Of a stretch of 64,000 nucleotides of DNA, positions 10,861-12,374 are shown piece by piece. Position 1 is the first letter of the stretch. Each line of letters begins with the position of its first letter. Below the pieces are notes generated by a model. That model saw only the letters and a program-made list of their open reading frames with translations. It had not been told where the DNA came from and searched no databases. Source of the stretch: Gemmatimonadota bacterium (GTDB lineage Bacteria; Gemmatimonadota; Gemmatimonadetes; Palauibacterales; Palauibacteraceae); contig OZ220691.1 of assembly GCA_965116475.1 (NCBI GenBank), positions 2,720,001 through 2,784,000 of the forward strand, read 5' to 3'. Made by a program: the position numbers and the translations under genes.

Positions 10861-12231
10861 TCACGCCGCCATCGGCCTGGTCTCGTACTGTCCCCAGAGG
10901 ACCCAGAGGGCCCAGTCGAGGTGGAGCGGATCGCCCATCCAGAGGCTGGTCGCCGTCCAGGGATCGATCCCCTCCTGCCGGTGCCAGTTCCCGAGTCCCG
11001 CATCGGCGGTTCGGGGCGGCTTGACGTCCTCGCGGACGGGGGGCACCGCCGGAACCACGCGTCCCCTCGGATCGCGGAAGCGCGCCGCGCCCGCCTGCCC
11101 CATCTCGACGCGCCAGCCGCCCTCGTGCATGGCCCTGTGATGGAACCGGCACAGGAGGATCAGGTTGTCGAGCTTCGTCTCGCCCCCCTCGGACCAGGGG
11201 ATGGCGTGGTGCGCCTGCGTGTAGCGCGAGCCGCAGCCCGGGAAGCGGCAGCCCCCGTCCCTGACGTCGAGCGCCTTGCGCAGCCGCCACCCCACCGTTC
11301 GCTGGCGGCGGCCCACGTCCAGCACGGAACCGTCCTGTCCGCGCTTCACTTCCACGGTCTCCGCGTCGCAGGCGAGCCGCCGGGACGTTCCCGCGGGAAC
11401 GTGTGAGCCGTCCTCCGTGGCCAGGATCTCGGGGCCGCCGGCCACGGTGTGGACCACCAGTTGCGCCTTCGCCTCGGCGCGCTCCTCGAGCCATGCCCCG
11501 AGCGCGTCGTGGCGCCGTTCCATCGGACTCGGCCGGAGCGTGGGCGTCGGCGGGTCCGGCTCCTCCAGGGCGGCGTCGGCCTCGTGCTCCATGGCGCACT
11601 CCTGCCGGTGGAGCTCGTCGGCGGTGACATCCAGCGTCTCCACGAGCAGGGCGCCCACTTCGGGCATGAGCAGGCCCCGGAGTTCGTACATGCCGTCATC
11701 CGTCACCCGGACCGTCAGGTGACGGCGGGCCGCCATCTCCGACGTCCCGTCCAGCGCCGCCATGGCGGCCTCCGCGCTCTTCGCCGCCCGCACGAAGCGC
11801 TCCACCTGGCTCGCCGTGTGGTGGAGGGCGAACTCGACCAGCCGCGCCTCGTCATCGGCGGTGACCATGCGCGTCAGCGCCCGGACCTTGGACCAGGAGA
11901 GCCGGCCCTTCTCCATCTCGGCGGAGGTCAGGGGCAGGTCGGCGAGGCGGCGGGCCACCCGCAGCCGCTCGCGGGCCGAGCCGAGGGAGATGCCGGTGCG
12001 CCAGTTCAGCCAGTGGGCGCAGGAGCGCCACCCGCTCCAGCGTTCCTCCTCATCGTAGCGGCGCAGCAGGGTCAGGAGCCGATACAGGGCGGCGTCGAGG
12101 TGGGCGCACAGCTCGGCGATCTCGTCGCCCACCGGGTCGCTGTTCAAGGCAGCGGCGTGCGAGTCGGCAGCGTTCCAGTCAGCGTTCGAGGCGGCGTTGG
12201 AGTCAGCAGAAGGGTCAGGCGTCTCATGCAT
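10861..12231 (-). CDS. DUF222-like domain protein with C-terminal HNH endonuclease
   Basis: SCAHWLNWRTG, ARERLRVARRL, RRLACDA, CRFPGC...HHAIPWSEGGETKLDNLILLCRFHH. Confidence 0.9.
   Translation of the reverse strand: MHETPDPSADSNAASNADWNAADSHAAALNSDPVGDEIAELCAHLDAALYRLLTLLRRYDEEERWSGWRSCAHWLNWRTGISLGSARERLRVARRLADLPLTSAEMEKGRLSWSKVRALTRMVTADDEARLVEFALHHTASQVERFVRAAKSAEAAMAALDGTSEMAARRHLTVRVTDDGMYELRGLLMPEVGALLVETLDVTADELHRQECAMEHEADAALEEPDPPTPTLRPSPMERRHDALGAWLEERAEAKAQLVVHTVAGGPEILATEDGSHVPAGTSRRLACDAETVEVKRGQDGSVLDVGRRQRTVGWRLRKALDVRDGGCRFPGCGSRYTQAHHAIPWSEGGETKLDNLILLCRFHHRAMHEGGWRVEMGQAGAARFRDPRGRVVPAVPPVREDVKPPRTADAGLGNWHRQEGIDPWTATSLWMGDPLHLDWALWVLWGQYETRPMAA
11385..11402. repeat. Palindrome ACGTTCCCGCGGGAACGT copy 1 (inside HNH CDS, encodes VPAGT)
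   Basis: Perfect 18-bp palindrome. Confidence 0.95.
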
Positions 12232-12352
12232 GGCGTTCTCATCCGAATCTCAGGGTTCAAAGGGGGTACGCACTCATACCCCGATCTTCGGTAAATGTTC
12301 GGGCTCGACCTCAACCAGATCTCAACCAGATCTAACGCCGTCTCAGCGTCCG

Positions 12353-12374
12353 GGACGTTCCCGCGGGAACGTCC
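12353..12374. repeat. Palindrome copy 2 (22 bp), upstream of HNH gene
   Basis: GGACGTTCCCGCGGGAACGTCC. Confidence 0.95.

What the first reader, a model, noticed from the sequence alone, without database searches (positions are those of the whole stretch)
10861..12374. Candidate new system: DUF222-like HNH nuclease gene that carries, and is flanked by, a dispersed perfect palindrome
Seen: CGTTCCCGCGGGAACG occurs 8 times with no mismatch, starting at 11386, 12356, 24244, 40488, 40551, 44216, 46807 and 49265. One copy is inside the HNH gene, where it encodes VPAGT just before RRLACDA. Another is about 125 bp upstream of its start. Eight exact 16-mers in 64 kb are far beyond chance. Established: REP/RAYT systems pair dispersed palindromes with a HUH transposase. 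Recollection, unverified: homologs often read VSAET here. That would be encoded by CGTTTCCGCGGAAACG, which differs at two symmetric positions and is still a palindrome. Inference: DNA symmetry constrains this coding segment, and the HNH protein binds, nicks or spreads its own cognate palindrome, giving a REP-like system with a different enzyme.
Basis: partly seen in the sequence, partly recalled or inferred. Interest (0 to 1): 0.9.

Follow-up and report, generated by a model that had tools for sequence, protein, structure and literature searches.

The report
Palindrome tied to DUF222-HNH nuclease genes
A perfect 16-22 base palindrome is scattered through this genome and also sits inside a nuclease gene of unknown function, and the same pairing recurs in distant bacteria, which suggests that the nuclease recognises this sequence.

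Summary
CGTTCCCGCGGGAACG occurs 8 times exactly, with no 1-2 mismatch variants, against 0.2 expected. It is the core of 16-22 bp perfect palindromes. Three copies are coding and read VPAGT: one in the DUF222-HNH gene and two in a hydantoinase loop. Five are intergenic. The window comes from a Candidatus Palauibacter-like Gemmatimonadota genome.

The link to the nuclease family is real and crosses phyla. Of 130 loci holding the 16-mer, 20 carry a DUF222-HNH gene, and it is the only specific family that recurs. Diverse family members are full of V[SP]A[EG]T pentapeptides. VPAGT and VSAET forms alternate between related lineages at two unrelated genes, and the nuclease genes show the same two forms.

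A new lead is that the DUF222 domain looks like the ParB/Noc helix-turn-helix domain, which binds 16-bp palindromes. The similarity is weak but consistent.

Binding, nicking and spreading by the nuclease remain untested. The flanked, REP/RAYT-like layout is not general, and the phylogenetically corrected covariation test is not significant.

The parts
10861..12231 (-). DUF222-HNH nuclease gene (456 aa). Residues about 70-140 form a ParB-type helix-turn-helix-like region. A variable linker follows, then the nuclease domain at 328-369.
   Evidence: Pfam DUF222 at 4.7e-27 and HNH at 4.6e-08. Invariant Cys, His and Asn are present. Closest homologs are 91% identical and named Candidatus Palauibacter.
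11385..11402 (.). Palindrome copy inside the nuclease gene (18 bp perfect). It encodes VPAGT (aa 278-282) at the N-cap of helix 280-288, just before RRLACDA.
   Evidence: There is no length change against homologs that read VSAET.
12353..12374 (.). Palindrome copy (22 bp perfect) 125 nt upstream of the nuclease start codon, in the divergent intergenic region.
   Evidence: It shares 30 nt at 87% with the in-gene copy (family D8).
24241..24262 (.). Palindrome copy (22 bp) between the stop codons of a convergent methyltransferase gene (stop ends at 24225) and a PIN-domain gene (stop at 24266).
40488..40567 (-). Two copies 63 bp apart (40488-40503 and 40550-40567) inside the fused hydantoinase A/B gene (38484-42443, minus strand). 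Both read VPAGT within a low-complexity loop insert.
   Evidence: Orthologs carry 0, 1 or 2 copies in this loop. Distant orthologs carry VSAET there.
44215..44244 (.). Copy plus a third half-site (30-bp unit) between the stop of a PIN gene (44208) and the stop of the S9 peptidase gene (44265).
   Evidence: It is identical to the 30-bp unit at 46806-46835.
46806..46835 (.). Copy plus a third half-site, 86 nt upstream of the S9 peptidase start codon (46721). With 44215-44244 it brackets that gene as a direct repeat.
49264..49281 (.). Copy (18 bp) 33 nt after the stop of the M56/BlaR1-type peptidase gene and before a HicB-like ORF.

Best explanation
The 16-22 bp perfect palindrome, consensus (G)(A)CGTTCCCGCGGGAACG(T)(C), is a cis element that belongs with DUF222-HNH nuclease genes.

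The protein joins a ParB/Noc-like helix-turn-helix domain to an HNH nuclease. It most likely binds the palindrome as a dimer, one half-site per subunit, and nicks or cuts at or near it.

Repair of such breaks by tandem duplication, short-tract conversion and occasional ectopic copying would do three things:
- keep copies exact;
- multiply them inside the gene's own tolerant linker;
- seed copies elsewhere in some lineages. In Palauibacter this gives about one copy per 8 kb in this window, at gene ends and as in-frame VPAGT inserts.

Shown here: the repeat, its DNA-level constraint, its cross-phylum link to the gene family, its turnover among orthologs, and the VPAGT/VSAET alternation between lineages.

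Inferred: the ParB-like fold is a weak but consistent signal. Binding, cleavage and repair-driven spread are inference only.
For: Repeat and DNA-level constraint:
- 8 exact copies against 0.2 expected, with no near variants.
- Three of the 4 VPAGT peptides in window genes use the exact rare-codon spelling.

Link to the gene family:
- 20 of 130 loci fetched by the 16-mer alone hold a DUF222-HNH gene.
- In 11 of these loci, 14 copies lie within the aligned gene and all read VPAGT. In the other 9 the copy lies 27-593 nt beyond the aligned part.
- DUF222 is the only specific family that recurs among the 235 locus ORFs scanned.
- Three DNA records were found by protein similarity alone. One holds the exact 16-mer in the gene's linker, and one holds the symmetric variant CGTCCCCGCGGGGACG about 100 nt upstream of the gene.
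- 150 diverse family members hold VSAET 81, VPAET 16, VPAGT 15 and VSAGT 7 times, with up to 4-5 per protein. The other two reading frames appear only 6 times.

Turnover and variant switching:
- The hydantoinase loop has 2, 1 or 0 VPAGT in 15, 17 and 6 of 38 orthologs, with at least 9 changes on the tree.
- 8 of 88 distant orthologs have VSAET in that loop.
- In the ADP-ribosylglycohydrolase N-terminus, 18 of the 20 closest orthologs read DVPAGTS and the next 2 read DVSAETS at the same place.
- A CVSAETS nuclease paralog and the DVSAETS hydrolase lie on contigs of the same three lengths.

Fold:
- The domain model has pLDDT 93, and the 13 best-listed PDB chains are all ParB, Spo0J or Noc. Examples are 7bnr_B (prob 1.00, rmsd 2.5 over 106 columns) and 6s6h_A, a ParB DNA-binding domain on parS (TM 0.50).
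- HTH_ParB matches 12 of 104 members below threshold, and the matches are co-linear.
- parS and NBS are 16-bp palindromes with half-sites TGTTTCAC and TATTTCCC (PMC7383237, passages).
Against: - No experiment bears on binding or cleavage.
- All Foldseek E-values are weak (0.057 at best, none at or below 0.001), and every HTH_ParB match is below Pfam's cut-off.
- In 10 other loci that include the gene's flanks there is no copy outside the gene. Only this window and one Rhodococcus plasmid have an upstream copy.
- At the gene's own site many family members read non-palindromic [VIL][SAP]x[EDQ]T. That site is therefore partly an ordinary protein motif, and VSAET is 5/8 self-complementary by its amino acids alone.
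- The S/P against E/G covariation is not significant on independent pairs: about 3 go the same way and 0 the opposite way among 7 pairs, p about 0.25.
- The 11 residues that separate VPAGT-type from VSAET-type nucleases follow phylogeny. None follows the motif in 13 switched sequences.
- The same-contig pairing rests on a few related genomes and could be shared ancestry.
- Many of the 130 loci are probably chance matches in ordinary enzymes.
Confidence: 0.5

Rival explanations
1. The dispersed palindromes are binding sites of another host protein of the ParB/Noc kind, or another dimeric DNA-binding protein, used for chromosome organisation or regulation. The nuclease gene carries them only because its VSAET-type motif is nearly palindromic and its linker tolerates inserts.
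For: - The sites resemble parS and NBS, which are exact, dispersed palindromes found in genes and between them (and recalled for Noc site distribution).
- There are no near-variants.
- Copies hold their positions across Palauibacter orthologs.
- No nuclease residue tracks the site variant.
Against: - This does not explain why 20 of 130 loci from many phyla place the site inside one gene family.
- It does not explain why members carry up to 4-5 copies.
- It does not explain a lone copy in a 26-kb record that sits exactly in that gene.
- No ParB or Noc gene is in the window.
Confidence: 0.2
2. The palindrome is a self-spreading or drive-maintained short repeat moved by some other agent. It would be REP- or MITE-like, or kept exact by biased repair or DNA uptake as proposed for HIP1 or uptake sequences. 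DUF222-HNH genes would be merely its most permissive landing place.
For: - Copies lie at gene ends and between convergent genes.
- In-frame inserts occur in unrelated proteins: hydantoinase, prepilin peptidase L065 and the PutA tail in L047.
- There is 63-bp unit gain and loss.
- A preferred reading frame is seen, as reported for uptake sequences (recalled).
Against: - No transposase family recurs near copies: 0 Y1/RAYT hits among the 41 window ORFs and 235 locus ORFs scanned.
- The identical core in several phyla fits poorly with lineage-specific uptake or repair systems.
- The enrichment in one gene family is far greater than linker tolerance would predict.
Confidence: 0.15
3. V[SP]A[EG]T is a protein-level motif selected in DUF222 proteins, for example a helix cap or a linear motif. 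On this view the DNA palindrome is a by-product and the intergenic copies are unrelated.
For: - T282 is nearly invariant, and the motif caps helix 280-288.
- Many members have [VIL][SAP]xET at this place.
- The peptide's first and second codon positions are self-complementary by themselves (inference from the code).
Against: - The exact 16-mer uses rare codons.
- Five intergenic copies match the in-gene copy beyond the 16-mer, over 23 nt with 12356.
- The same 16-mer occurs in non-coding arrays in other genomes, such as L014 and L040.
Confidence: 0.04
4. The copies act as operators of a regulon or as transcription terminators.
For: - Some copies lie upstream of genes (12356, 46807) or just after stop codons (24244, 44216, 49265).
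- The hairpins fold at -10 to -12 kcal/mol as single strands.
Against: - No T-run follows any copy.
- Three copies lie within coding loops.
- Eight copies in 64 kb is a high density, and the neighbouring genes have no functional theme.
- Rfam finds nothing at the copies.
Confidence: 0.08

Closest known systems
REP elements with RAYT (Y1 HUH) transposases, 'REPtrons' (recalled)
   Same: Short palindromic repeats are dispersed mostly at gene ends. They are genetically tied to one nuclease-type gene, with lineage-specific variants.
   Different: - The enzyme here is a ParB-like HTH plus HNH, not an HUH Y1 transposase.
- The repeat is a perfect, loop-less palindrome.
- Its home is inside the enzyme's own reading frame rather than flanking it as an inverted pair.
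- It also occurs as in-frame inserts in other genes.
ParB-parS and Noc-NBS (PMC7383237, passages read)
   Same: These are 16-bp perfect palindromes with related half-sites (TGTTTCAC and TATTTCCC, against CGTTCCCG here). They are read by a dimeric helix-turn-helix domain, and that domain is the best structural match of the DUF222 domain.
   Different: - No ParB CTPase domain was detected.
- The partner domain is an HNH nuclease.
- The sites lie inside the protein's own gene.
- The similarity is below significance thresholds.
13E12 repeat family / REP13E12 of mycobacteria, which is Pfam DUF222 (PMC3381160 and PMC13157036, passages read)
   Same: It is the same protein family. That family is described as multi-copy, induced by DNA damage through LexA, and over-represented at inversion breakpoints. 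An SOS-box-like site also precedes the Rhodococcus plasmid homolog.
   Different: In those papers the repeat is the whole gene of about 1.4 kb. The passages I read mention no short palindrome, no ParB-like domain and no dispersed 16-mer.
Rickettsia palindromic elements (recalled)
   Same: Palindromic repeats are inserted in frame into protein-coding genes and tolerated in loops.
   Different: Those elements are about 100-150 bp, restricted to Rickettsia and without a known enzyme. Here the conserved unit is 16-22 bp and is tied to a nuclease family.
HIP1 of cyanobacteria and DNA uptake sequences with 'dialects' (recalled)
   Same: These are exact short motifs that are over-represented in coding and non-coding DNA. 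They have a preferred reading frame, and variants differ between lineages.
   Different: Those motifs are 8-12 bp and specific to a lineage. This one is 16-22 bp, shared across phyla and concentrated in one gene family.

Membership tests
DUF222 (PF02720, '13E12 repeat family') | Match to the Pfam model above its gathering score | tested here: met
   95.6 bits against a cut-off of 24.4, covering residues 43-325.
HNH endonuclease (PF01844) | Match above the cut-off, with the metal-binding and catalytic Cys, His and Asn present | tested here: met
   33.5 bits against a cut-off of 21.4. C328, C333, H341, H342, N356, C361, H365 and H369 are invariant in 104 sequences. The nearest solved nuclease domains are McrA and IscB.
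REP/RAYT system | An associated Y1 (HUH) transposase gene | tested here: not met
   There is no such Pfam hit among the 41 window ORFs. There is none among 235 of the 251 selected ORFs of loci L001-L080. The 16 ORFs left out were duplicates from overlapping loci.
REP/RAYT system | Repeats flank the enzyme gene on both sides | tested here: not met
   The window has one upstream copy and none downstream. None of 10 other full-flank loci has a copy outside the gene.
ParB/Noc family | ParB-type helix-turn-helix DNA-binding domain | tested here: inconclusive
   The 13 best-listed Foldseek chains are all ParB, Spo0J or Noc, but E is 0.057 or worse. HTH_ParB matches 12 of 104 members, all below the 22.6-bit cut-off.
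ParB/Noc family | N-terminal ParB CTPase domain | tested here: not met
   No such family appears for the window protein or among the 25 most frequent families of the 104 members.
Homing endonuclease gene | The gene interrupts, and so destroys, its own recognition site | tested here: not met
   The palindrome is intact inside the reading frame. No half-sites lie at the gene's ends.
Intrinsic terminator | A G+C-rich hairpin followed by a T-run | tested here: not met
   The hairpins fold, but no T-run follows any of the 8 copies.

The most novel reading that the evidence does not exclude
DUF222-HNH proteins, the large uncharacterised '13E12' family, are site-specific nucleases guided by a ParB-like domain. 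Their target is a parS-like palindrome that they carry inside their own genes. When induced, they break DNA at these sites. Repair then duplicates, homogenises and disperses the palindrome and drives recombination between copies. This would be a new kind of nuclease-and-repeat selfish system found across several phyla.
Probability: 0.3. Interest if true: 0.9.

Novelty: new variant of a known kind. Interest (0 to 1): 0.78.

Why it matters
DUF222-HNH is a very large family: 13,967 cluster representatives match at E up to 1e-10. It has no known function or DNA target. In mycobacteria it is induced by DNA damage and sits at inversion breakpoints.

A defined 16-22 bp candidate target and a ParB-like reading head turn an open question into a one-week bench test. 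They would also explain where a class of exact dispersed palindromes, and the odd VPAGT/VSAET inserts in unrelated proteins, come from.

My searches found no paper that holds the palindrome or links DUF222 to a palindrome.

Tried and rejected
Checks that gave nothing or could not be run:
- Chance is rejected.
- No known RNA family lies at the copies; Rfam finds only a tRNA at 25767-25839.
- The window's own genome is not among the fetched loci.
- Plasmid and phage collections gave only 2 and 1 records with a homolog, too few to test codon-level symmetry at VSAET sites.
- In the 5 VSAET sites with DNA, symmetry at third codon positions is no better than codon bias would give.
- The protein atlas gave no usable hit for the N-terminal domain.
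- PADLOC gave only weak HNH-level hits, and NCBIfam only a weak IscB-level HNH hit.
- Sequence search of solved structures finds only HNH domains.
- The inner inverted repeat of the 63-bp unit (40513-40530) is unique in the window.
- A homodimer prediction could not be run. The job never entered the queue, so dimerisation is unchecked.

Tests that came out against a tighter link:
- A search for nuclease residues that switch with the gene's own site variant found none.
- The independent-pairs covariation test is not significant.

Unresolved:
- Toxin-antitoxin genes lie near several copies. I could not tell whether this is more than their general abundance.
- A second collection scan, for the VSAET-type spelling or for homologs' DNA, was not available.
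- Genome-wide counts, and the 'abundant without the gene' test, therefore stayed unchecked.

Full report
**Observation.** The 16-mer CGTTCCCGCGGGAACG occurs exactly 8 times at the stated positions. No copy has one or two mismatches. Dinucleotide-preserving shuffles give a mean of 0.20, and none of 100 reaches 8. Allowing three mismatches adds only 7 unrelated sites. Each copy is a perfect palindrome of 16 to 22 bp: 11385-11402, 12353-12374, 24241-24262, 40488-40503, 40550-40567, 44216-44231, 46807-46822 and 49264-49281. Pooled over 153 distinct sites from all sources, the flanks favour (G)(A/G) before and (T/C)(C) after the core, and 75 of the 153 sites extend to 18 bp or more.

**Anatomy in the window.**
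- The ORF at 10861-12231 (-) is a 456-aa DUF222 plus HNH protein. The copy at 11386 encodes V278-P-A-G-T282 in HVPAGTSRRLACDA.
- A second copy lies 125 nt upstream of the start codon. No copy lies downstream of the gene.
- Two copies 63 bp apart lie inside a fused hydantoinase A/B gene. Both read VPAGT within a low-complexity loop.
- The other copies are intergenic. One lies between convergent stop codons at 24244. One lies between the PIN and S9 peptidase stops at 44216. One is 86 nt upstream of the S9 peptidase start at 46807. One is 33 nt after the M56 peptidase stop at 49265.
- The copies at 44216 and 46807 are part of an identical 30-bp unit that brackets the peptidase gene.
- No T-run follows any copy, and Rfam finds nothing at them.
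- GTT makes up 4.5% of Val codons and GGA 13% of Gly codons in the window's genes. The chance of this spelling given VPAGT is 6e-4, yet 3 of the 4 VPAGT peptides use it. The constraint is therefore on the DNA.
- The window's closest nuclease homologs, up to 91% identical, are named Candidatus Palauibacter, Gemmatimonadota.

**Link to the gene family.** My own estimate from base composition is that 100-300 chance matches are expected in 596 Gb. Consistent with that, many single hits sit in ordinary enzymes where VPAGT is part of a fold, such as an ABC ATPase or an AMP ligase.

Even so, 20 of the 130 loci hold a DUF222-HNH homolog. In 11 of them, 14 copies lie inside the aligned gene and all read VPAGT. 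Three are at the same site as here (window, L122, L102). The others are in the variable linker, and three loci have two copies. In the other 9 loci the copy lies 27-593 nt beyond the aligned part, in the linker, the tail or just past the gene.

Pfam was run on 235 of the 251 selected ORFs from L001-L080. The 16 left out were duplicates from overlapping loci. DUF222 appeared in 10 ORFs, and no other specific family or transposase recurred.

A sample that does not depend on the palindrome agrees. Three DNA records were found by protein similarity. A 26-kb phage-like scaffold has the exact 16-mer once, inside the gene's linker. A Rhodococcus plasmid has the symmetric variant CGTCCCCGCGGGGACG about 100 nt upstream of the gene, next to an SOS-box-like site. 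An Arthrobacter record has none.

**Family-wide pattern.**
- Among 150 diverse representatives, V[SP]A[EG]T occurs 119 times: VSAET 81, VPAET 16, VPAGT 15 and VSAGT 7. It appears at the canonical site, in linkers and in tails, with up to 4-5 copies per protein and 22-aa periods. The peptides of the other two frames occur 6 times.
- The symmetric pairs S/E and P/G make up 96 of the 119.
- Among 118 close homologs, the Palauibacter clade reads VPAGT in 50 of 56, and the sister clade reads mostly VSAET. VPAET intermediates occur, and the tree needs 13 state changes.
- On phylogenetically independent pairs, the S/P and E/G changes go the same way in about 3 of 7 pairs and never the opposite way. 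This is not significant.
- Across a wider alignment many members read a non-palindromic [VIL][SAP]x[EDQ]T at this place. The canonical site is therefore partly an ordinary protein motif, and in the model it caps helix 280-288.

**Dispersed copies change with lineage.**
- In the hydantoinase loop, 15 of 38 orthologs have two VPAGT, 17 have one and 6 have none. The tree needs at least 9 changes, 4 of them forced by well-supported branches.
- Of 88 more distant orthologs, 8 carry [GND]VSAETS in the same loop.
- In an ADP-ribosylglycohydrolase gene (L045), the palindrome forms codons 8-12. Of the 20 closest orthologs, 18 read DVPAGTS and 2 have decayed. The next two read DVSAETS at the same place. 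None of the other 98 holds either pentapeptide.
- A CVSAETS nuclease paralog and the DVSAETS hydrolase lie on contigs of the same three lengths. One of those contigs also has a CVPAGTS nuclease and exact VPAGT-type copies.
It rests on a few related genomes, however, and shared ancestry is not excluded.
- The 11 residues that separate VPAGT-type from VSAET-type nucleases all follow phylogeny rather than the site variant.

**Mechanistic lead.**
- A model of residues 31-259 has pLDDT 93. Its 13 best-listed PDB matches are all ParB, Spo0J or Noc, including DNA-binding domains bound to parS and NBS. The rmsd is 2.2-3.1 over 79-106 columns for most of them. E-values are only 0.057-0.35, and none reaches 0.001.
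- Pfam's HTH_ParB model matches 12 of 104 family members below its cut-off. The matches are co-linear, at residues about 58-152.
- No ParB CTPase domain is seen.
- ParB and Noc read 16-bp palindromes with half-sites TGTTTCAC and TATTTCCC (PMC7383237, passages). The half-sites here are CGTTCCCG and, in the VSAET spelling, CGTTTCCG.

I therefore infer that the DUF222 domain reads the palindrome as a dimer and that the HNH domain nicks or cuts nearby. The rest of the model is inference: repair-driven duplication inside the gene's linker, homogenisation, and dispersal in Palauibacter.

**Comparison and novelty.** The system works like a REP/RAYT pair in outline but fails that family's tests. There is no Y1 transposase, no flanking pair, and the repeat lies inside the reading frame. 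It shares the protein family with the mycobacterial 13E12 repeats, which are LexA-regulated and enriched at inversion breakpoints (PMC3381160 and PMC13157036, passages). Searches for the sequence, for DUF222 with HNH and palindrome, for REP13E12, for DUF222 alone, and for ParB-like with HNH found no description of this pairing. One survey reports ParB-CTPase fusions to HNH, which is a different domain (PMC12704722, passages). Supplements of these papers were not read.

**Verdict.** The functional link is plausible at about 0.5 and directly testable.

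Noticed in passing
window 44215-44244 and 46806-46835: An identical 30-bp unit, made of the palindrome plus a third half-site, brackets the S9 peptidase gene as a direct repeat. It could mark a gene-sized insertion or a sub-family of the repeat.
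   Followed up: partly
window 24266-24925, 36788-38251, 43666-44208, 49328-49960; L008, L009, L025: Toxin-antitoxin genes (PIN twice, HipA, HicB; PemK, PhdYeFM and YoeB in other loci) lie next to several palindrome copies. I did not test whether this exceeds their general abundance.
   Followed up: no
window 12310-12331: A tandem 11-bp direct repeat, CTCAACCAGAT twice, lies between the upstream palindrome and the nuclease start codon. It may be a promoter or operator feature.
   Followed up: no
L131 16604-16619 (Rhodococcus plasmid NZ_CP050126.1): An SOS-box-like inverted repeat, TCGAACGTACATTCGA, lies about 45 nt upstream of the DUF222-HNH start. This fits the LexA control reported for mycobacterial 13E12 genes.
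   Followed up: partly
window 58921-60567: Nine copies of a 72-bp-period repeat lie inside a 1557-aa protein gene with leucine-rich repeats and Big_2 domains (57242-61915, minus strand). A second leucine-rich-repeat and leishmanolysin-like gene lies at 33945-36788.
   Followed up: no
window 18940-18995 and 28561-28702: The 14-bp unit GGGATTGGGTTAGC is repeated four times in tandem between ffh and rpsP. A 9-bp-period repeat of about 140 bp lies at the start of the TonB-dependent receptor gene.
   Followed up: no
window 6338-7072: A fragment of a DDE transposase (DDE_Tnp_1_4) matches only profile positions 50-131 of 435. It is probably a remnant.
   Followed up: no
L004, L005, L026, L027, L044, L061 (one bin labelled Sphaerochaetaceae, 55-58% G+C): Several exact copies occur in a genome bin of quite different composition, and no DUF222 gene lies within the fetched flanks. 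This may be a counter-example, or the gene may lie elsewhere.
   Followed up: no
L014 2001-2132 and L040 2001-2060: These are non-coding arrays of 2-3 exact copies plus degenerate ones with 28-88 bp spacing. They resemble clustered REP arrays.
   Followed up: no
window 40488/40551; L018, L115, L120: A 63-bp start-to-start spacing between paired copies recurs in four loci from different phyla, although the spacer sequences share no similarity.
   Followed up: partly
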